Shown here one piece after another: positions 2,798 through 42,838 of a DNA stretch of 50,120 nt (the stretch's first letter is position 1; the number at the start of each line of letters is the position of its first letter). The position numbers were made by a program, and so were the translations under genes. The notes beneath the pieces were generated by a model. The model was not told the origin of the DNA. It made no database searches and saw only the letters and a program-made list of their open reading frames with translations. Where the stretch lies: the IMG/VR virus record IMGVR_UViG_3300006052_000001. One strand, given 5' to 3'. The stretch comes from a virus. Lineage: Duplodnaviria > Heunggongvirae > Uroviricota > Caudoviricetes.

Positions 2798-4290
2798 TGA
2801 CAACTCCAACTTACTCAGCCCTTCAAGCTCCTACGGCTGTAGACTACACATCTAAAGACTGGCAGGCATTCGTTACATCAATGCTGAATTATGCCGCTGT
2901 GATCATGCCCGAGTGGGACACATCTTCAGAGGGCGATTTCGGCGTGATGCTAGTTGAGCTATTCGCCTACATGGGAGACATTCTATCCTTCTACGGTGAC
3001 AGGCTAACTCAGGAAGCGTATCTACCAACAGCTACTCAGAGACTCAGCATTCTGAATATCGCTCAGCTTCTAGGATACGTGCCTACAAACGGTTCACCAG
3101 CTACAGGTACGGTTACTCTTCAGAATACAACAGCTAATCCAATCACAGTACCCGCTGGCACTCAGATAGCTACTAGCTTCCTTACTGCTGCTGATGCTCC
3201 TATCATCTATCAGATAACATCTAACGTAACTGTGCCAGCTAATAGCACCGCTTCAGCCAATCTTTCACAGGGACTAACTTATACTTCAGTAATTTTGGGA
3301 GTGTCAGATGGAACAGCAGGCCAGGAATTCGAAATCCCGCAAGCTGGTGTCGAAGATGGTACTGTTACTGTATATGTATCAAGCGCTCAAAGCCCTATTA
3401 AATGGAATCAGGTAACGTTCCTAGTAGACTCTGATGCTGACGCACAGGTGTTCTCAGTATCCGTTGACCAGAACAACATTACTAGCGTGCAATTCGGCGA
3501 CAATATTAATGGTGCCATCCCTGGTATCGGACTAACTATCACAGCTACGTACACAGTAGGTGTGGGTTCCCTGGGAAATCAGGGAGCGGGTCTAGTTGGT
3601 GCTATTGTTAATCCTATTGCCGGAATAGTAGTGCCATTCCAGTCAGCAGGAAGCTCTCTCTATCAGTCATCAGCTATGACAGGTGGTTCTGATCCTGAGA
3701 CTAACGACCAGATCAGGGCTAACGCACCACTAGCTTACACAACTCAGCAAAGAGCGGTTTCCCTGGCAGACTACGCTAACTTGTCCCTGCAAGTTCCCGG
3801 TGTTCTAGTAGCTAATGCTATAGCTAATCACGCTACTAGCGTTACTCTGTATGTCCTTGGTCCTAACTACCAAGCTGCTAGCTCTGGATTGCAGAATAAT
3901 ATACTATCCTATTTTGCAAACAACAGGACTCTGGCTGGTACAACAGTGACTATCGGAACACCAGCACTTATACCAGTAGACATTGGTTCCTCTGGAAATC
4001 ACGTACAGCTACAGGTTATGACAAACTACAACCAGGGTGTAGTCGTAGCCAACGTAACGACAGCCTTGCAGTCTCTACTGTCACCGCCAAACTCTCAGTT
4101 CGGCCAGCTTCTTCAGGTGTCGTCTGTGTACAGTACAATTATGAGTGTGCCTGGTGTTGCTTATGCTGTAGTTAATGTTATGACCAGAGAAGATATTACA
4201 CAGACTAACACTAATCCTATTCAGTTCCGCCAGTCCGAAATCCCGGTGGCTGGTACAATGTATATTACCGCTTCGGGAGGTATCCTATAA
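2797..4290 (+). CDS. Baseplate J-like wedge subunit
   Basis: DYTSKDW...DFGVMLVELFAYMGD.LSFY.D....EAYL.TA, GGSDPETNDQIR and RAVSLADY motifs of gpJ/gp6-like proteins. Confidence 0.9.
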   Translation: MTTPTYSALQAPTAVDYTSKDWQAFVTSMLNYAAVIMPEWDTSSEGDFGVMLVELFAYMGDILSFYGDRLTQEAYLPTATQRLSILNIAQLLGYVPTNGSPATGTVTLQNTTANPITVPAGTQIATSFLTAADAPIIYQITSNVTVPANSTASANLSQGLTYTSVILGVSDGTAGQEFEIPQAGVEDGTVTVYVSSAQSPIKWNQVTFLVDSDADAQVFSVSVDQNNITSVQFGDNINGAIPGIGLTITATYTVGVGSLGNQGAGLVGAIVNPIAGIVVPFQSAGSSLYQSSAMTGGSDPETNDQIRANAPLAYTTQQRAVSLADYANLSLQVPGVLVANAIANHATSVTLYVLGPNYQAASSGLQNNILSYFANNRTLAGTTVTIGTPALIPVDIGSSGNHVQLQVMTNYNQGVVVANVTTALQSLLSPPNSQFGQLLQVSSVYSTIMSVPGVAYAVVNVMTREDITQTNTNPIQFRQSEIPVAGTMYITASGGIL

Positions 4291-22520: not shown

Positions 22521-22839
22521 GCATTTAAAGCGTTCTAGATTGCAGGAGGTTAGGGCTGCCCGCCAGTATGGGGGCAGCGTTAACAGTGGTTCTGGTAATC
22601 AATGGCGCAGGAAAAATGACGTAAGAACAACGGAAGAGTCAATAGAGCTAAAGACTACTACCAAGCACAGCTATTCGCTAAAAGCGGCAGAGATAGCAAC
22701 CGCTCTTAAAAATGCTCTACTTGATGACAGAATGATGGTATTTGAAATAGAGTTTGCTGACGATGGTATAACATGTGTTGTCCTAGATAAGTCAGACTAT
22801 CTCACGTTGAGGGAGAGAGGCTTAAGTGACTCAGAATAG
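22498..22839 (+). CDS. PD-(D/E)XK nuclease, Holliday-junction resolvase-like
   Basis: QE..AA..YGG...SGSGNQW..KNDV......IELKTT. Confidence 0.7.
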   Translation: MPIPKRNEHLKRSRLQEVRAARQYGGSVNSGSGNQWRRKNDVRTTEESIELKTTTKHSYSLKAAEIATALKNALLDDRMMVFEIEFADDGITCVVLDKSDYLTLRERGLSDSE

Positions 22840-23207
22840 TACTAAGGTTACGTGTAGATGCGCCTAATGGCTGGGCATCAGCTAAGTGCAGAAATATACA
22901 GATAACGCAAGACTATGACCCCTTCTTTGACGAAGAGGATAACAGTGACGCGCTAGATTTCTGCAACGGAGAAGCTGATGGTGTTGTGTGTCCCATCCGG
23001 CAAGAATGCCTGCTTTTCGCGCTTACTAATAATTGCAAAGAGGGCGTGTGGGGTGGAACAAGTGAAATTACCAGAAAAGCGATCAGGAAAAAGAACCCGC
23101 TTAAAAAAGGAACAGAGCCGAGAACTGAATGGCAATGGATGAGCGAAGAAGACGCCTTAAAGGGTCTGGACAGAAATCAGCTTCTACAGGAAGTAGAGCT
23201 AGAGTAG
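22836..23207 (+). CDS. whiB: WhiB-family Fe-S transcription factor (start codon unresolved; ATA at 22836 proposed)
   Basis: Frame of track ORF 22986 extends upstream without stops to 22836: W..AKC...DPFF...C...VCPIRQECL.FAL.N....GVWGG, four Cys plus GVWGG. Confidence 0.8.
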   Translation: MVLRLRVDAPNGWASAKCRNIQITQDYDPFFDEEDNSDALDFCNGEADGVVCPIRQECLLFALTNNCKEGVWGGTSEITRKAIRKKNPLKKGTEPRTEWQWMSEEDALKGLDRNQLLQEVELE

Positions 23208-40132: not shown

Positions 40133-40675
40133 ATGGAATACAACGTTGGCGATTACGTATGTGTGAATATCAAAGGTCACACTCCCTGGGGTTGGTTTAT
40201 AGCTCAGGCTATTAAGCATTTTACCCATTCTGAATATGATCATGCTTTCGTTATTGTTGGGGCAGACGGCACCATTGTAGAAGCTAAGCCTACTGGTGCC
40301 GAGGTATCTAATATAACTGAATACGCCGGAATGGATATGAAGTTCTATACGTACCCTATTCCCGGCAAAATGAGAAAAGCCATCGCTGATAATGCGCGTG
40401 GCTTTGTCGGCGTTAAATATGGTTTTCTGGATATTGTGTATCTAGGACTCACAGCAAATGGGCTGAAGTTTAAATGGCTTCTTAAGAAGGTTCTGAGAGA
40501 AGATAGAATGATTTGCTCTCAGCTAGTAGCAACATCGGGTGTAAAAGCAGGAACAAGACTATGGCTGTGCGGAAAAGCAGACCCTCAGCTAGTAACACCC
40601 GCCGATCTTGCTAAACTAGCGGATCAATACACATTGGAATCTTCACATGCATATATACGAGAGGAAGCCAACTAA
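40133..40675 (+). CDS. Permuted papain-like NlpC/P60 amidase (YaeF/YiiX-like)
   Basis: Catalytic His (YDHAF..VG...IVEA) precedes Cys (ICSQLVA); G..YG; ends TPADL. Confidence 0.75.
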   Translation: MEYNVGDYVCVNIKGHTPWGWFIAQAIKHFTHSEYDHAFVIVGADGTIVEAKPTGAEVSNITEYAGMDMKFYTYPIPGKMRKAIADNARGFVGVKYGFLDIVYLGLTANGLKFKWLLKKVLREDRMICSQLVATSGVKAGTRLWLCGKADPQLVTPADLAKLADQYTLESSHAYIREEAN

Positions 40676-41132
40676 AGGCGCAGTAAAGACTGCTGACGTA
40701 CACGCAGCAAAACTTAACGGGCACTCTAGCTGGTATCAGAAGTTAAATACAAAACTAGCTGTTAAAATCAGCAAGTCCGTAGGTTCTATGACTTGCGCTT
40801 ATATTTTCGCGTGCATCGCGCTTATAAGCCTTCCTGCCGCTCTGGCAACACATAATCTTATCGTTATTGTCTCCTGGGTAGCTCAGACCTTCTTGCAGCT
40901 AGTTCTGCTATCTGTGATTATGGTTGGGCAGGACGTTGGAGCGCAAGCAGGAGAAATGCGCTCAGAGCAAACTGAGTCTAACACAGAGGCTATTCTCCAT
41001 ACTGGTGAGCATATCGTTTCACAGGGCGATACAGCTATTGCCCAGAACGAGAAAATGATCGCGCAGAATGAGGCTATCCTGGCTCAGAATGAGCTACTTC
41101 TAGCTAAGGTTTCAGGCAATGCATCTGCCTAG
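40647..41132 (+). CDS. Membrane protein, DUF1003-like
   Basis: I...VGSM.CAYIF...SW..QTFLQLVLLSVIMVGQ, then coiled tail. Confidence 0.6.
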   Translation: MHIYERKPTKGAVKTADVHAAKLNGHSSWYQKLNTKLAVKISKSVGSMTCAYIFACIALISLPAALATHNLIVIVSWVAQTFLQLVLLSVIMVGQDVGAQAGEMRSEQTESNTEAILHTGEHIVSQGDTAIAQNEKMIAQNEAILAQNELLLAKVSGNASA

Positions 41133-41361
41133 CTGGATGGACCTTTCAACGTGGGAAGACTTATGGACAGCTTTTGTTGTTACAGCACTTTTCACAATAC
41201 CAGCAGTTATCGCGTCGCATCTGCGGACAAATAAGAAGATGAATAAGCACCAGGCATCTATGACAGACTTGCTCGATCCCACCACACCGGGCGGATTGGG
41301 CGAAATCGGACATCTGAAAAATTCTCCCGAACCTCTTGACAACGAGGCTGAGCTAGGGTAG
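41119..41361 (+). CDS. Small membrane protein
   Basis: One TM helix; overlaps previous gene. Confidence 0.5.
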   Translation: MHLPSWMDLSTWEDLWTAFVVTALFTIPAVIASHLRTNKKMNKHQASMTDLLDPTTPGGLGEIGHLKNSPEPLDNEAELG

Positions 41362-41364
41362 TGT
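41336..41364 (+). promoter_or_regulatory. Promoter TTGACA-N17-TAGTGT
   Basis: Exact -35, 17-nt spacer, A-tract (GAAAAATT) upstream; would drive the Cys-peptide/ncRNA cluster. Confidence 0.7.
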
Positions 41365-41405
41365 ACTTATCAGACGGCCCGCTGGTCGTGACGAAAGGAA
41401 GTCCG

Positions 41406-41504
41406 ATGGAAGATGATTGCGTGCCTTGCTCTCTGGGAAACTGCTCTGAATGTTTTGGCGGGGATTGTACCTGCGGCCATAACAAACCGAAATCCAAGAG
41501 CTAA
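41406..41504 (+). CDS. Cys-rich metallothionein-like peptide (32 aa, 6 Cys + His), not in ORF track
   Basis: Hand translation MEDDCVPCSLGNCSECFGGDCTCGHNKPKSKS; AAAGGAAG RBS. Confidence 0.6.
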   Translation: MEDDCVPCSLGNCSECFGGDCTCGHNKPKSKS

Positions 41505-41596
41505 AAAGGCAGGTTGCTTGTTGCCAAAACAAGGTCGGTACTGAGAGTATAAAATTGGACCAGAAAACTGCTGACAGACTACTCAGTGCGATTTTT

Positions 41597-41721
41597 GCTC
41601 ATCTAATGTAGTACTAAACCACCGCATCAATGCCCAGTGCTAGCAAAGGGTAGAGTAATGCAATTAGTCTTTTGTCACAACGGCTAAGTGGTTAGTCCGG
41701 GTGCAACTCCTGGGGTGAGAG
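41597..41721 (+). ncRNA. Weak tRNA-like element (T-arm plus possible acceptor stem, oversized interior)
   Basis: CCGGG-TGCAACT-CCTGG T-arm (41697-41713) followed by GGTGAG, which can pair with CTCATC at 41598-41603. Confidence 0.35.
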
Positions 41722-41769
41722 GGATTGCAGAACTGACAAGCTGGCGAATCCCACTATAAATTACGAGCG

Positions 41770-41805
41770 CCCCTTATATATGGCTCGATATGAGTAAGGG
41801 AACCA
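41770..41805 (+). ncRNA. Possible acceptor-minihelix ending in ACCA
   Basis: CCCCTTA/TAAGGGA stem (C.A top mismatch), inner hairpin with GGCTCG loop, then A-CCA. Confidence 0.25.
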
Positions 41806-41829
41806 AGGGCATACAAAACCTTATTCCAA

Positions 41830-41969
41830 ACCGGCATACGCAAGCGGGATAGCGGCCGATTTTTGTCGGTGGGTCAAAACCTGAAGCGGCTAGTTGCAAA
41901 TAGCAGCGGTCCTAGTAACGTTCATGGACTAAGGTTTTTGCTGTGCAGGTTCGAGTCCTGCTGCCGGTA
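41830..41969 (+). ncRNA. Non-canonical tRNA-like RNA (140 nt): tRNA-Gln-like D-arm, shrunken anticodon loop, ~70-nt insertion in variable region
   Basis: Perfect acceptor ACCGGCA/TGCCGGT, TA linker, D-arm CGC-AAGCGGGATA-GCG, stem GCCGA/TCGGT around TTTTTG, canonical T-arm GCAGG-TTCGAGT-CCTGC; no encoded CCA. Confidence 0.7.
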
Positions 41970-41983
41970 CTCAGCACTACATT

Positions 41984-42181
41984 ATGGAGGTTACATTGAA
42001 GGCTGGAACAAGAGTCAAGCTTAGGACAGAAAACGCTCAGACAGGTGTTGTCACTAAGCTACTCAAAGATGGTGGGTTCAAAGTCACTTTCGATGCGACT
42101 AAGGATGAAAATGGCAGAAAGGTTCCTGGTGGAAAATTCTTCTACCGGAAATCACAATCTGAAGGTTTTATCTTCAGCTAA
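41984..42181 (+). CDS. Small SH3/KOW-like basic protein
   Basis: GTRVKL...TGVVTKL...FKVTFD. Confidence 0.6.
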   Translation: MEVTLKAGTRVKLRTENAQTGVVTKLLKDGGFKVTFDATKDENGRKVPGGKFFYRKSQSEGFIFS

Positions 42182-42190
42182 GGAGAAAAT

Positions 42191-42406
42191 ATGACAAAGA
42201 AGTACAATGTCAAAGTACAAGCTCTGGGCCAGACGTGTAATATTTTGGTTCCTGCTACTAGCGAAATCGCAGCGGCTTTCGCGGCTGGTCAGATTTCAAT
42301 TGCTGATGGCGGATGGGGTGACAAGGATTTCACAGGTGGTGGCGTAGGAAAACTTTCGTCAGCGTTCTTTGAACTGTACGAGATTGACGTTACCCCAAAG
42401 GATTAA
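42191..42406 (+). CDS. Hypothetical protein
   Basis: AAGGAG RBS. Confidence 0.65.
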   Translation: MTKKYNVKVQALGQTCNILVPATSEIAAAFAAGQISIADGGWGDKDFTGGGVGKLSSAFFELYEIDVTPKD

Positions 42407-42415
42407 TTAAGACCC

Positions 42416-42602
42416 GCTTGTGCAAGGTGCTATTCTCTGAGTCTAGACTAAGAGAATATGAGGGGGGAGTAAAATCCCTAAGTGCAAATCCCTCAGCAAG
42501 CGCTGGCAGAAATGCCATAGCCTGACAGAAGTAATTAAGTCTGCGTAGGCGGCTTAATGAAAATGTTAGAGGTCTGGGATTGATGCATAAATCCGCGAGG
42601 CC
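42416..42602 (+). ncRNA. Candidate structured ncRNA (multi-helix, T-loop-like motifs, possible H-type pseudoknot)
   Basis: GCTTG/CAAGC, TATTCTCT/AGAGAATA, GAGGG/CCCTC, GGGA/TCCC, TGGCA-GAAA-TGCCA, GCCT..CAGA/TCTG..AGGC, loop ATTAAG pairing with CTTAAT, GGATT/AATCC. Confidence 0.5.
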
Positions 42603-42625
42603 ACACACTAGAACTTGGAGGTTAG

Positions 42626-42769
42626 ATGGCAAAAGGTAAGAAAAACAAAGACAAGCCAGCCAAGATTCGTTATTGGGCAGAGGATCATCGCGGACGAAAC
42701 AAGAGGCGACGAATTGCCCGCTGTAATGGTCCTGACTATCTAGCCTGGTGGGAAAAGAACTACGGTTAA
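42626..42769 (+). CDS. Small basic protein (47 aa, MAKGKKNKDK...), not in ORF track
   Basis: GGAGG RBS; hand translation. Confidence 0.65.
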   Translation: MAKGKKNKDKPAKIRYWAEDHRGRNKRRRIARCNGPDYLAWWEKNYG

Positions 42770-42797: not shown

Positions 42798-42838
42798 GTC
42801 AAGCCCTTCTAGAAAATAAACTTCTAGAAGGGCTTGAC
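42798..42838. terminator. 17-bp perfect inverted repeat (terminator/operator) overlapping the next -35
   Basis: GTCAAGCCCTTCTAGAA / TTCTAGAAGGGCTTGAC, 7-nt loop. Confidence 0.7.

What the first reader, a model, noticed from the sequence alone, without database searches (positions are those of the whole stretch)
41830..41969. tRNA-Gln-like RNA with a crippled anticodon loop and a ~70-nt branched domain in the variable arm
Seen: flawless acceptor stem (7/7), canonical T-arm, and a D-arm (TA-CGC-AAGCGG-GATA-GCG) echoing tRNA-Gln (TA-GCC-AAGCGG-TAA-GGC) with compensatory stem changes. The anticodon loop is only 4-6 nt (TTTTTG). The 75 nt between anticodon stem and T-arm can fold as AAAACCT/AGGTTTT closing two hairpins (GCTA..GCAA..TAGC; GGTCC/GGACT). 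It is too small for a group I intron or tmRNA, and removing the insert does not restore a 7-nt loop. An intact elbow and acceptor with a broken decoder argue for a non-decoding function. Inference: tRNA mimic acting as a decoy or inhibitor for anticodon nucleases, synthetases or RelA, or an RNase P/Z-processed scaffold carrying a functional RNA domain. I do not recognise it as a described family.
Basis: partly seen in the sequence, partly recalled or inferred. Interest (0 to 1): 0.78.

Follow-up and report, generated by a model that had tools for sequence, protein, structure and literature searches.

The report
Conserved non-decoding tRNA-shaped phage RNA
This 140-base phage gene has the shape of a transfer RNA but no usable anticodon; related phages keep the same odd design, with a three-way arm whose two hairpin tips are palindromes, so it is probably a working non-coding RNA of unknown role and not a broken tRNA.

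Summary
Window 41830-41969 (+) has a perfect 7-bp acceptor stem, a D arm with GG, a canonical T arm, a 5-bp "anticodon" hairpin with only a 4-6-nt loop, and a 75-nt three-way-junction domain in the variable-arm position. Rfam tRNA scores 30.3 bits (cut-off 29). Standard ARAGORN calls nothing.

Seven assemblies of this phage are identical, so they show no variation. Homologues came from synteny: L172:3816-3953 and L200:6244-6385, in two related phages whose neighbouring proteins are 43-52% identical.

Both homologues keep the whole design with almost every stem rewritten: 92.5% of pair cells stay paired (29-45% in slid controls) and 25 of 38 pairs change on both sides. Both also have a short anticodon-type loop (5-6 nt). 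All six junction hairpin loops carry a palindrome of 6 nt or more (UUGCAA, AACGUU, UUGCGCAA, AUGCGCAU).

ARAGORN's intron mode calls a tRNA-Lys with a 70-nt intron, but only in this phage, not in the homologues.

Best reading: a conserved, non-decoding, tRNA-scaffolded RNA, presumably cut out by tRNA-processing enzymes. Its working part would be the palindrome-tipped junction, which suggests loop-loop RNA pairing. The function is unknown, and the decoy idea was not tested.

Earlier notes of this scan describe similar phage tRNA-shaped RNAs on other DNA. No Rfam family other than tRNA matched, and I found no paper describing it.

The parts
41815..41828 (+). 5' leader segment AAAACCUUAUUCCA, complementary in 13 of 14 positions to 41925-41938 inside the element. 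It could be an alternative pairing in the precursor or a duplication scar.
   Evidence: Inverted repeat I4. The leader-element duplex is -28.8 kcal/mol against -20.2 +/- 3.2 for shuffled leaders, p about 0.017. CAAAACCT occurs only at 41814 and 41875 in the 50-kb window.
41830..41836 (+). Acceptor stem, 5' strand ACCGGCA. It pairs 7/7 with 41962-41968.
   Evidence: In the alignment with the two homologues, 6 of 7 pairs change on both sides and stay paired.
41837..41854 (+). U8 A9 and the D arm: stem CGC/GCG with loop AAGCGGGAUA carrying the GG needed for the tRNA elbow.
   Evidence: All 3 stem pairs change on both sides among the homologues. The same D-arm motif occurs in phage tRNA genes with Leu anticodons.
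41856..41869 (+). Anticodon-arm stub: CCGAU-UUUU-GUCGG. The loop is 4 nt, or 6 nt if the U*G pair is opened. There is no 7-nt anticodon loop.
   Evidence: Rfam alignment. The homologues also have stubs: 8 bp plus UUACC in L172 and 5 bp plus UUAGAU in L200.
41876..41938 (+). Three-way-junction domain in the variable-arm position. The basal stem AAAACCU (41876-41882) / AGGUUUU (41932-41938) encloses two hairpins.
   Evidence: Minimum-energy fold of the insert alone. The same architecture appears in L172 (CUCUC/GAGAG) and L200 (UAAUGGU.CC/GG.CCAUUA). 6 of 7 basal pairs change on both sides. The motifs ACCUGAA and CAUGRACUAAGG are shared with L200.
41886..41907 (+). Junction hairpin 1: GC.GCUA[GUUGCAAA]UAGC.GC. 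The 8-nt loop (41893-41900) holds the palindrome UUGCAA (41894-41899).
   Evidence: L172 carries the loops AUUGCAAG and GUUGCAAA on different stems.
41908..41930 (+). Junction hairpin 2: GGUCC[UAGUAACGUUCAU]GGACU. The 13-nt loop (41913-41925) holds the palindrome AACGUU (41917-41922). GUAAC in this loop can pair with GUUGC of loop 1 (5 bp).
41945..41961 (+). T arm GCAGG-UUCGAGU-CCUGC, with a canonical T loop.
   Evidence: The T stem is the same in the window, L172 and L166, and differs by one G-U pair in L200.
41962..41969 (+). Acceptor stem 3' strand UGCCGGU and discriminator A. No CCA is encoded; the next bases are CUC.
41987..42181 (+). Shine-Dalgarno GGAGG (41987-41991) and a 61-aa ORF (TTG at 41996) start 18 nt after the element, so the two are probably co-transcribed.
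   Evidence: No + strand terminator-like site was found between 41000 and 42798.

Best explanation
The element is a gene for a conserved, non-decoding, tRNA-shaped RNA.

What is kept is the part of a tRNA that processing enzymes read: the acceptor/T-arm stack and the D-loop/T-loop elbow. So the RNA is most likely cut out of the long + strand transcript by host RNase P at 41830 and trimmed at 41969, with CCA added afterwards because none is encoded. Those steps are inferred, not shown.

The anticodon arm is reduced to a capped stub, so the RNA cannot read codons. This is shown by the sequence, and the same holds in both homologues.

The selected cargo is the three-way junction in the variable-arm position. 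Its two hairpins display loops that contain palindromes. I infer that these loops make RNA-RNA contacts, either with each other inside one molecule or between two copies. The tRNA body would supply stability and processing.

Cutting the RNA out would also free the downstream small-gene mRNA from the upstream transcript.

The biological role (host takeover, defence evasion, assembly or regulation) is unknown.
For: 1. It is tRNA-derived. Rfam tRNA scores 30.3 bits over positions 1-71 of the model. All four frame stems are perfectly paired, with U8, A14, GG in the D loop and UUCGAGU in the T loop. The cloverleaf-plus-junction fold lies within 4.3 kcal/mol of the minimum.

2. It is non-decoding. 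The loop is 4-6 nt and standard ARAGORN makes no call.

3. It is conserved. A covariance model built from this sequence alone finds L172:3816-3953 full-length at 40.3 bits, E 4e-10. A second model finds L200:6244-6385 at 36.5 bits, E 3.6e-8.

4. The homologues are syntenic. Both lie in phages where the neighbouring C92-peptidase-like gene is 46-51% identical and, in L172, the 61-aa ORF is 43% identical.

5. The stems covary. On the three-sequence alignment, 92.5% of pair cells are standard pairs against 29-45% when partners are slid by 1-3 columns. 25 of 38 pairs change on both sides, against 2-4 in the slid controls and 9.9 +/- 2.4 in shuffles.

6. The loops are palindromic. All six junction hairpin loops of the three RNAs carry a palindrome of 6 nt or more. 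In the minimum-energy folds of the window and L172, both hairpin loops are palindromic, which none of 1500 dinucleotide shuffles of either sequence reproduced. In L200 the minimum-energy fold instead pairs the two loop palindromes with each other. Six-base palindromes are otherwise rarer than expected in the window: 0.0085 per position against 0.0156.

7. The two loops of one RNA can pair with each other. L172 has 6 bp (p 0.014), L200 has 6 bp (p 0.034) and the window has 5 bp (p 0.16).

8. It lies on the coding strand, 18 nt upstream of a ribosome-binding site, with no terminator before 42798.

9. Other phages carry oversized tRNA-shaped genes with non-anticodon arms inside tRNA arrays, some with an encoded CCA (L166, L139, L141, L145). 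L166:650-799 scores 42.9 bits with a model that did not include it.
Against: - There is no expression, processing or binding data. Every enzymatic step is inferred from shape.
- Only three homologues exist, and the alignment used for the pair counts was fitted to the model's structure, which inflates pairing.
- The thermodynamic signal of the insert alone is ordinary (z = -1.1).
- The element is not fixed in place. It lies before the 61-aa ORF in the window and after it in L172. It sits inside about 1.1 kb that L172 lacks between the same two genes, so it behaves as an optional module.
- A model built from the three homologues hits none of 41 quasi-random IMG/VR records, so the family is narrow or diverges fast.
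- In the window, pairing between the two loops is no better than chance (p 0.16).
- Palindromes could instead be read at the DNA level.
Confidence: 0.6

Rival explanations
1. It is a cis-acting processing or regulatory element of the mRNA. On this view the tRNA shape exists only to recruit RNase P and 3' processing, so that the downstream 61-aa/71-aa message is separated from the upstream transcript, or its translation is controlled. The excised RNA itself would have no role of its own.
For: - The element ends 18 nt before the Shine-Dalgarno sequence of the next ORF, and no terminator intervenes.
- The leader can pair with the 3' part of the junction (13 of 14 positions, p about 0.017), which would suit a precursor switch.
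- A second structured RNA at 42407-42612 is followed by a similar CACUA...UGGAGGUUA.AU ribosome-binding stretch.
Against: - A plain tRNA or a minimal acceptor/T-arm mimic would be enough for cleavage. It does not explain why a 65-75-nt junction with palindromic loops is conserved.
- In L172 and L200 the element is not directly upstream of a homologous ORF. It is followed by more non-coding sequence.
Confidence: 0.15
2. It is an evolutionary relic. A former phage tRNA gene (Leu-, Gln- or Lys-like) was disabled by a small deletion in the anticodon loop and by insertion of a mobile palindromic three-way-junction DNA element (MITE- or RPE-like) into the variable loop. It is now drifting without function.
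For: - The basal stem looks like terminal inverted repeats (CAAAACCT ... AGGTTTTTG).
- TTTTTG is repeated at 41860 and 41935.
- The element lies in a lineage-specific block that L172 lacks at that spot.
Against: - The window holds no other copy of the insert.
- Excising the segment between the repeats does not give a valid tRNA.
- Two diverged homologues keep both the stub and the junction at the same place, with compensatory changes in every helix and no broken stems. That is the signature of purifying selection on the fold, not of drift.
Confidence: 0.1
3. It is a DNA-level signal. On this view the palindromes (TTGCAA, AACGTT, TTGCGCAA, ATGCGCAT) and hairpins are binding sites for a dimeric protein, or a folded single-stranded DNA signal (an origin or a nicking or packaging site) that happens to lie in a former tRNA gene.
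For: - All six loops are palindromic, which is a typical property of sites for dimeric DNA-binding proteins.
- Each hairpin plus its loop is nearly a continuous DNA palindrome.
Against: - G-U pairs are tolerated in the stems: GU or UG pair types occur in helices 1, 2, 3, 5, 6 and 7. These pairs work in RNA but not on the complementary DNA strand.
- The tRNA frame with intact elbow nucleotides is conserved too, and a DNA site would not need it.
- The strand matches the direction of transcription.
Confidence: 0.06
4. It is an intron-containing tRNA-Lys(UUU). A 70-nt intron at position 36/37 would be removed to give a 71-nt decoding tRNA.
For: - ARAGORN in intron mode makes this call, with TTTTG at both borders.
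- Lak megaphages are reported to carry tRNA genes with unexplained introns (PMC6784885).
Against: - The spliced anticodon stem would have only three Watson-Crick pairs, one G-U pair and one C*U mismatch, with G37. In the precursor the same 5' strand forms a perfect hairpin with the first bases of the supposed intron.
- No group I or other ribozyme family matched at E up to 10. From general knowledge, 70 nt is far below the size of a group I intron.
- ARAGORN in intron mode finds nothing in either homologue, so the splice reading is not conserved although the structure is.
Confidence: 0.03

Closest known systems
Bacteriophage T4 RNA C (species 1 RNA, rnaC, 139 nt) and RNA D, the small stable RNAs of the T4 tRNA cluster
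   Same: - Phage-encoded and about 140 nt long.
- Carries a canonical T arm (CCGGG-UUCGAAU-CCCGG) and an acceptor-like helix at the 3' end.
- Barely recognised by tRNA models: only tRNA-Sec at 17.5 bits.
- Annotated only as a small stable RNA, with no function given in the record.
   Different: - No sequence similarity was detected.
- T4 rnaC has a 5' extension of about 45 nt before its tRNA-like part, and I did not see a three-way junction with palindromic loops in it.
- It lies inside a tRNA array, whereas this window has no other tRNA.
Canonical tRNA (Rfam RF00005), in particular the short-variable-loop (type I) tRNA with anticodon CAA found in phage arrays and in Streptomyces (Fan et al. 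2019, PMC6614811)
   Same: - Acceptor stem, a 3-bp D stem with a GG loop, the T arm and discriminator A.
- The D arm and the start of the anticodon stem (UACGCAAnnGGnAUAGCGGCC) match 72-76-nt tRNA(CAA) genes.
   Different: - The loop is 4-6 nt instead of a 7-nt anticodon loop.
- The variable region is a 75-nt branched domain instead of 4-5 nt.
- ARAGORN makes no call.
tRNA-like domain of tmRNA (SsrA)
   Same: A tRNA top half (acceptor, T arm, D-loop contacts) carries a large structured domain that leaves the body near the variable-arm position.
   Different: - This element keeps a D stem and an anticodon-arm stub.
- The insert is 75 nt, without pseudoknots and without a convincing tag reading frame.
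- ARAGORN's tmRNA mode called nothing, and the Rfam scans listed only the tRNA family here (one lower-scoring overlapping match from the same clan is not named in the output).
Palindromic kissing-loop dimerisation hairpins, such as the retroviral dimer initiation site (review of RNA dimerisation motifs: PMC7357161)
   Same: Hairpin loops of 8-13 nt contain a self-complementary hexamer or octamer flanked by unpaired purines. This is the sequence requirement for loop-loop dimerisation (for the review; general knowledge for the retroviral site).
   Different: - Here two such loops sit side by side on a three-way junction mounted on a tRNA body.
- Dimerisation is untested, and the loops could pair within one molecule.
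tRNA genes with unexplained introns in Lak megaphages (Devoto et al. 2019, PMC6784885)
   Same: Phage tRNA-type genes that are too long for bacterial tRNA finders. They carry conserved inserts of unknown removal mechanism, and one insert is itself tRNA-like.
   Different: - The Lak cases are read as introns in otherwise decodable tRNAs.
- Here the splice reading is weak and is not conserved in the homologues.
Engineered tRNA scaffold for recombinant RNA (described in PMC3401473)
   Same: A tRNA body is used to give a foreign structured RNA stability and correct processing in bacteria. This is the working principle I infer for the natural element.
   Different: - The engineered scaffold replaces the anticodon stem-loop with the cargo.
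- Here the cargo sits in the variable-arm position and the anticodon arm is capped off.

Membership tests
tRNA (Rfam RF00005; functional decoding tRNA) | Score at or above the Rfam gathering threshold over the full model | tested here: met
   30.3 bits against a cut-off of 29, model positions 1-71. This is marginal. The homologue L172 gave no tRNA hit at E up to 5. L200 was not scanned against Rfam.
tRNA (Rfam RF00005; functional decoding tRNA) | Seven-base-pair acceptor stem, D arm with GG, and T arm with a UUCRANY loop | tested here: met
   Read directly from the sequence and from the Rfam alignment.
tRNA (Rfam RF00005; functional decoding tRNA) | Seven-nucleotide anticodon loop with U33 and a readable anticodon | tested here: not met
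   The loop is UUUU (4 nt) or UUUUUG (6 nt). The homologues have UUACC and UUAGAU. Standard ARAGORN makes no call in any of the three.
tRNA (Rfam RF00005; functional decoding tRNA) | Variable region of about 4-24 nt | tested here: not met
   It is 75 nt here, 68 nt in L172 and 76 nt in L200, each a three-way junction.
Intron-containing tRNA (self-splicing group I, or protein-spliced bulge-helix-bulge) | Excision of the insert yields a canonical cloverleaf, and this holds in relatives | tested here: not met
   ARAGORN in intron mode gives tRNA-Lys(UUU) with a mismatched anticodon stem in the window only. It finds nothing in L172 or L200.
Intron-containing tRNA (self-splicing group I, or protein-spliced bulge-helix-bulge) | Recognisable ribozyme core or splice motif | tested here: not met
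   No intron or ribozyme family of Rfam matched at E up to 10 in 41300-42200. I looked for a bulge-helix-bulge motif by eye only and did not see one.
tmRNA | tRNA-like domain plus a tag reading frame and pseudoknots, detected by ARAGORN or Rfam | tested here: not met
   ARAGORN's tmRNA mode found nothing. The Rfam scans listed no tmRNA family.
YrlA-type bacterial or phage Y RNA | Match to the Rfam YrlA model, a Ro-binding stem formed by the RNA ends, and a Ro60 gene nearby | tested here: not met
   There was no Rfam match. The ends of this RNA form the acceptor stem. No TROVE/Ro60 domain appeared among the ORFs scanned with Pfam, but not every ORF was scanned.
Phage tRNA-shaped scaffold RNA with a palindrome-tipped three-way junction (proposed here from window, L172 and L200) | tRNA acceptor, D and T frame, a capped anticodon stub, and a three-way junction in the variable-arm position, kept through compensatory changes | tested here: met
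   92.5% of cells are paired, and 25 of 38 pairs change on both sides, against 2-4 in the slid controls. The alignment is fitted to the model and holds only three sequences.
Phage tRNA-shaped scaffold RNA with a palindrome-tipped three-way junction (proposed here from window, L172 and L200) | Both junction hairpin loops contain a palindrome of 6 nt or more | tested here: met
   The palindromes are UUGCAA and AACGUU (window), UUGCAA twice (L172), and UUGCGCAA and AUGCGCAU (L200). L166 shares the frame but not this feature.
Mobile palindromic DNA element (MITE- or RPE-like) inserted in a tRNA gene | Several dispersed copies, and a target-site duplication whose removal restores the host gene | tested here: not met
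   The window holds no second copy of the insert. Removing the segment between the TTTTTG repeats does not restore a tRNA (reasoned). Only 50 kb of a genome of about 116 kb could be searched.
Kissing-loop dimer RNA | Loop-dependent dimer formation | not testable with these tools
   Only the sequence requirement, palindromic loops, is met. This needs native gels with loop mutants.

The most novel reading that the evidence does not exclude
The RNA is a natural self-assembling unit. A tRNA body, made stable and abundant by the host's own tRNA-processing machinery, displays two different self-complementary loops on a rigid three-way junction. Copies would then join loop to loop into dimers or longer chains or rings during infection. 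Such an RNA multimer could act as a scaffold, sponge or condensate-former for the phage.

Two independent palindromes per molecule (UUGCAA and AACGUU in this phage) are what a chain-former needs, and what a simple intramolecular lock does not need.
Probability: 0.2. Interest if true: 0.8.

Novelty: new variant of a known kind. Interest (0 to 1): 0.62.

Why it matters
- **Annotation gap.** Phage genomes are annotated for tRNAs by tools that discard anything without a 7-nt anticodon loop, so RNAs like this one go unseen. Here standard ARAGORN gave nothing and Rfam was barely over its threshold. For one homologue (L172) Rfam gave nothing at all.
- **Evidence of function.** Such an element is kept, helix by helix, across phages whose proteins are only about half identical. 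That shows phages use the tRNA shape for something other than decoding.
- **A testable handle.** The palindromic loops can be mutated and then restored to test for RNA-RNA pairing. The review PMC7357161 notes that functional RNA oligomers are rarely seen in nature.
- **Possible wider use.** If the tRNA body serves as a natural stabilising scaffold, the family also offers ready-made designs for expressing structured RNAs in Actinobacteria.
- **Context from this scan.** Notes on other DNA describe similar tRNA-shaped phage RNAs, so this may be one branch of a large uncatalogued class.

Tried and rejected
**Searches that found no homologue**
- blastn of the region and of the element against 50,697 phage records gave nothing, or only T-arm matches of 21 nt. 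The same held for L166 and L139.
- An exact search for the T arm plus the acceptor 3' strand in IMG/VR gave 0 hits.
- The stub hairpin CCGATTTTTGTCGG gave 118 hits in IMG/VR, all chance.
- The 61-aa ORF has no near relatives by word-based search.
- The 161-aa upstream protein belongs to a very large membrane-protein family found in lysis cassettes of unrelated phages, so it gave no synteny for the RNA.
- DNA polymerase relatives include G001, a 116-kb phage with 35 ordinary tRNAs and no long tRNA-like gene.
- All other assemblies of this phage are 99.9-100% identical, so they carry no variation.

**Searches with limited yield**
- D-arm pattern scans of IMG/VR, JGI metagenomes and GTDB genomes found the same D arm in tRNA(CAA/UAG) genes and in a few anticodon-less tRNA-like genes. 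They found no copy of the insert.
- The 157-nt model hits in L187 and L188 are artefacts that span two adjacent tRNA-Leu genes.
I therefore could not check whether the rest of the roughly 116-kb phage has tRNAs.

**Readings I rejected**
- tmRNA: no call, and no credible tag reading frame.
- Hammerhead ribozyme: the CUGAAG at the junction is not a hammerhead core, and Rfam has no hit.
- A nested D-armless mini-tRNA inside the insert: ARAGORN's mitochondrial mode found nothing.
- A conserved protein partner among the small neighbouring ORFs: the 47-aa ORFs of the three phages are unrelated. The 61-aa ORF is shared by the window, L172 and L171 but not by L200.
- A shared promoter block upstream: no clear block was common to all three.

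No protein-binding prediction was run.
Full report
**1. What is there**

Window 41830-41969 (+) reads ACCGGCA UA CGC AAGCGGGAUA GCG G CCGAU UUUU GUCGG, then 75 nt, then GCAGG UUCGAGU CCUGC UGCCGGU A.

- Rfam's tRNA model aligns end to end at 30.3 bits, against a gathering score of 29. It places four loop bases in the anticodon arm and puts the extra bases in the variable region.
- The E-value of 0.021 is for 100 kb times 4227 families. For the tRNA family alone it is about 5e-6, so the match is not a chance hit.
- Standard ARAGORN finds no tRNA or tmRNA in the whole 50-kb window.
- The 75 nt fold on their own into a three-way junction. Basal stem AAAACCU/AGGUUUU encloses hairpin GC.GCUA[GUUGCAAA]UAGC.GC and hairpin GGUCC[UAGUAACGUUCAU]GGACU.
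- With the tRNA frame enforced, the whole fold costs -49.8 kcal/mol against -54.1 for the free minimum.
- Folding energy alone is not striking: z = -2.55 for the element and -1.1 for the insert.

The one correction is that ARAGORN's intron mode can read a tRNA-Lys(UUU) with a 70-nt intron, although the spliced anticodon stem would be poor.

**2. Setting**

- The window is part of a large tailed phage. All long ORFs are on the + strand. They include baseplate proteins, DnaB, primase, family A DNA polymerase, RecA, SNF2 helicases, a GH25 lysozyme and an NlpC/P60 muralytic protein.
- It also encodes WhiB. From general knowledge, that points to an actinobacterial host.
- The same sequence occurs in a 116,018-bp ENA contig and in JGI and Logan assemblies at 99.9-100% identity.
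- The element sits at the end of a stretch of about 630 nt with no convincing ORF. It lies 18 nt before the ribosome-binding site of a 61-aa ORF. The first + strand terminator-like site follows at 42798-42838.
- None of the neighbouring proteins I scanned has a tRNA-related domain.

**3. The search for relatives**

Direct DNA searches, exact-pattern scans and the first protein anchors failed. Details are under "tried and rejected".

Pattern scans with the D-arm motif were still informative. UACGCAAnnGGnAnAGCGG(CC) occurs in ordinary phage and metagenome tRNA genes with anticodons CAA and UAG, including 72-76-nt short-variable-loop forms. It also occurs in several oversized tRNA-shaped genes that lack an anticodon loop:

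- L139:843-948 has a stub with a 4-nt loop and a long variable hairpin whose loop holds AACCGGUU.
- L141:4731-4839 is 109 nt, in a 532-kb phage record.
- L145 is called "tRNA-???" by ARAGORN.
- L166:650-799 is 150 nt, sits inside a tRNA array and has an encoded CCA.

So the frame looks more Leu-type than Gln-type. My sample is biased by the pattern I searched with. Type I tRNA-Leu(CAA) is known in Streptomyces (PMC6614811).

**4. Homologues**

*L172.* A full HMMER search with the 61-aa ORF found a few small stand-alone relatives. One of them, P0140, lies in a syntenic phage (L172-L175). Its C92-peptidase-like gene is 51% identical to the window's and its 61-aa ORF is 43% identical. A short blast match to the T arm led to L172:3816-3953, 138 nt:

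- acceptor CGCGCCG/CGGCGUG
- D stem GAU/AUC with loop GAAGGCGA
- an 8-bp stub capped by UUACC
- a junction with basal stem CUCUC/GAGAG and hairpins CUGGUG[AUUGCAAG]CAUCAG and UCGCCA[GUUGCAAA]UGGUGA
- T arm GCAGG-UUCGAAU-CCUGC

*L200.* The C92-like protein then led to a third phage (L200-L202). A covariance model found L200:6244-6385 there, 142 nt, at 36.5 bits and E 3.6e-8:

- stub UCGUG[UUAGAU]CACGG
- basal stem UAAUGGU.CC/GG.CCAUUA
- hairpin loops GAAUUGCGCAAAA and AAAUGCGCAU
- the strings ACCUGAA and CAUGRACUAAGG shared with the window

A model built from the window sequence alone had already ranked L166 (44.3 bits) and L172 (40.3 bits) above all ordinary tRNAs in my loci.

**5. Is the fold under selection?**

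On the alignment of the window, L172 and L200:

- 92.5% of the 106 pair cells are standard pairs, against 29-45% when the 3' partners are slid by 1-3 columns.
- 25 of 38 pairs carry changes on both sides, against 2-4 in the slid controls and 9.9 +/- 2.4 in shuffles.
- Every helix except the invariant T stem shows such changes. The set with L166 in place of L200 gives similar figures.

Two cautions apply. There are only three sequences, and the alignment was fitted to the model's structure.

Even so, two diverged sequences from syntenic phages fold into the same seven helices with almost no shared stem sequence. That is hard to square with a decaying gene.

The intron reading is not conserved. 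ARAGORN's intron mode finds nothing in L172 or L200.

**6. The hallmark: palindromic loops**

That prompted me to look at the loops. The palindromes are:

| RNA | Loop 1 | Loop 2 |
|---|---|---|
| Window | UUGCAA (41894) | AACGUU (41917) |
| L172 | UUGCAA | UUGCAA |
| L200 | UUGCGCAA | AUGCGCAU |

- For the window and for L172, none of 1500 dinucleotide shuffles, refolded, gave two palindromic hairpin loops.
- Six-base palindromes are otherwise under-represented in this phage: 0.0085 per position against 0.0156 expected.
- In L172 and L200 the two loops share a palindromic core, so they can also pair with each other (6 bp; p 0.014 and 0.034).
- In L200 the minimum-energy fold actually draws that pairing as a helix. 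The homologous junction fold is only 1.5 kcal/mol worse.
- In the window the two loops carry different palindromes and can cross-pair over only 5 bp, GUUGC with GUAAC (p 0.16).

Three sequences cannot decide between an intramolecular lock and contacts between molecules.

**7. How it most likely works**

*Shown:*
- It has a tRNA frame with intact elbow nucleotides.
- It has no anticodon loop.
- It carries a conserved junction with palindromic loops.
- It lies on the coding strand.

*Inferred from what RNase P, the 3' trimming enzymes and the CCA-adding enzyme are known to recognise (the acceptor/T-arm stack and the elbow):*
- The RNA is excised at 41830 and 41969 and receives CCA.
- The tRNA body gives it stability.
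- Excision also separates the downstream small-gene message from the upstream transcript.

*Further inference:* the junction is the functional part and works through loop-loop RNA pairing.

*Possible but untested:* charging by LeuRS. The discriminator is A, and the D arm is of the type seen in Leu-anticodon tRNA genes. From general knowledge, bacterial LeuRS does not read the anticodon. However, PMC6614811 reports that variable-loop length matters for the Streptomyces enzyme.

A decoy for anticodon nucleases seems unlikely, because the anticodon loop is exactly what is absent and variable.

**8. Rivals**

- *Pure cis-acting processing signal (0.15).* This does not explain the conserved cargo.
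- *Relic of a tRNA hit by a mobile palindromic element (0.10).* This is contradicted by the compensatory changes and by the lack of other copies. The junction could still have started that way.
- *DNA-level palindromic site (0.06).* This fits poorly with the G-U pairs in the stems and with the conserved tRNA frame.
- *Intron-containing tRNA-Lys (0.03).* The splice reading is weak and not conserved.

**9. Points against over-reading**

- The element is mobile within its neighbourhood. It lies before the 61-aa ORF in the window and after the 61-, 47- and 70-aa ORFs in L172. In L200 it sits in a 900-nt spacer.
- It lies in about 1.1 kb that L172 lacks between the same two genes.
- A model of the three homologues hits none of 41 quasi-random IMG/VR records. 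Outside its training set it recovers only L166 as a full-length long match, at 42.9 bits.
- The family is therefore either narrow or fast-evolving.
- L166 shares the frame but not the palindromic loops.

**10. Comparison with what is known**

- The nearest described objects are the T4 stable RNAs C and D. rnaC is 139 nt, has a canonical T arm and an acceptor-like helix, and has no function annotated.
- Others are the tRNA-like domain of tmRNA, the unexplained "introns" of Lak megaphage tRNAs (PMC6784885), and palindromic kissing-loop dimerisation hairpins (PMC7357161).
- None of these is a family this element can be filed under. The membership table gives the tests.
- No Rfam family other than tRNA matched, and four literature searches found no description.
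- Earlier notes of this scan report similar tRNA-shaped phage RNAs on other DNA, including one with loop-loop pairing and one with GUUGCAAC-capped arms. I used those notes as leads only. By sequence look-up they are not the same loci.

**Verdict**

This is a real, conserved, non-decoding tRNA-shaped RNA. It is a new variant of the little-studied kind of phage tRNA-like stable RNAs. It has a clear and testable structural hallmark and an unknown role.

Noticed in passing
window 42407-42612 (+): A second, strongly structured non-coding stretch lies between the 71-aa and 47-aa ORFs. Its minimum energy is -68.5 kcal/mol, z = -3.4, and 0 of 200 shuffles fold as well. No Rfam family matched. Its 3' part (42521-42604) has a counterpart directly after the tRNA-like element of the related phage (L172:3972-4055, seen as a tblastx match). 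This is the subject of another note (e1-5397444).
   Followed up: partly
window 41975-41996 and 42606-42627: The stretches that follow the two structured RNAs resemble each other (CACUAnnnnUGGAGGUUAnAU; 77% over 22 nt). Each holds the ribosome-binding site and start codon of the next small ORF. That suggests a repeated RNA-plus-small-ORF module.
   Followed up: no
window 41996-42181 (61-aa ORF): This small protein matches a repeated 35-50-residue unit found up to 11 times in giant proteins of 1000-5900 aa (E down to 7e-20). It also matches a few stand-alone proteins of 61-97 aa in phage-like contigs. Pfam gave no hit.
   Followed up: partly
L147-L156 and L158 (JGI and other metagenomes); L163-L165 (Pirellulaceae and Planctomycetaceae MAGs): A 72-nt short-variable-loop tRNA with anticodon CAA is followed within 15 nt by a conserved ORF (MKANKQFTIRLANG...). 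The cassette recurs in many contigs and at least twice in one Pirellulaceae MAG, next to large tRNA arrays. The same arrays hold an 85-nt class-II-shaped 'tRNA-Asn(GUU)' (L163:1583-1668). Its T arm plus 3' acceptor strand is 23/24 identical to the element studied here.
   Followed up: partly
L166:650-799(-), L139:843-948(+), L141:4731-4839(-), L145:3216-3311(-), L168:1182-1265(-), L176-L182: tRNA-rich uncultured phages carry many oversized or anticodon-less tRNA-shaped genes of 84-150 nt. Their inserts sit in the anticodon arm, the D loop or the variable arm. Several lie inside tRNA arrays and have an encoded CCA. Each has a different insert.
   Followed up: partly
L145:6692-6774 (-): A match to the type-P3 twister ribozyme (RF03154) lies just above its gathering score (41.2 against 39.9 bits) in a 72-kb phage contig.
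   Followed up: no
L198:2452-3156: In a related 119.6-kb phage contig, an RNA ligase gene (PF09414) lies about 150 nt upstream of the C92-peptidase-like gene, with a 53-aa ORF between them. In the other three phages that C92-like gene marks the neighbourhood of the tRNA-shaped RNA. The covariance model found no such RNA in L198.
   Followed up: no
window 40647-41132 (161-aa ORF): This ORF belongs to a very large family (more than 7900 hits) of small, probably membrane proteins. In other phages the family sits in lysis cassettes next to holin and endolysin genes. It is absent at this spot in the syntenic phage L172.
   Followed up: partly
window 22836-23126: The WhiB reading frame flagged by another note does match Pfam Whib (E 1.6e-10) when translated from 22836. 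That supports an actinobacterial host.
   Followed up: partly
L172:3632-3665 and 3739-3770; L200:6107-6140: Upstream of the tRNA-shaped RNA, the two related phages share a motif, GUCGGUAGRUU..GGG....GUAUCCGUACUGC, which is repeated in L172. It could be a promoter or a further hairpin. I found no clear counterpart in the window.
   Followed up: no
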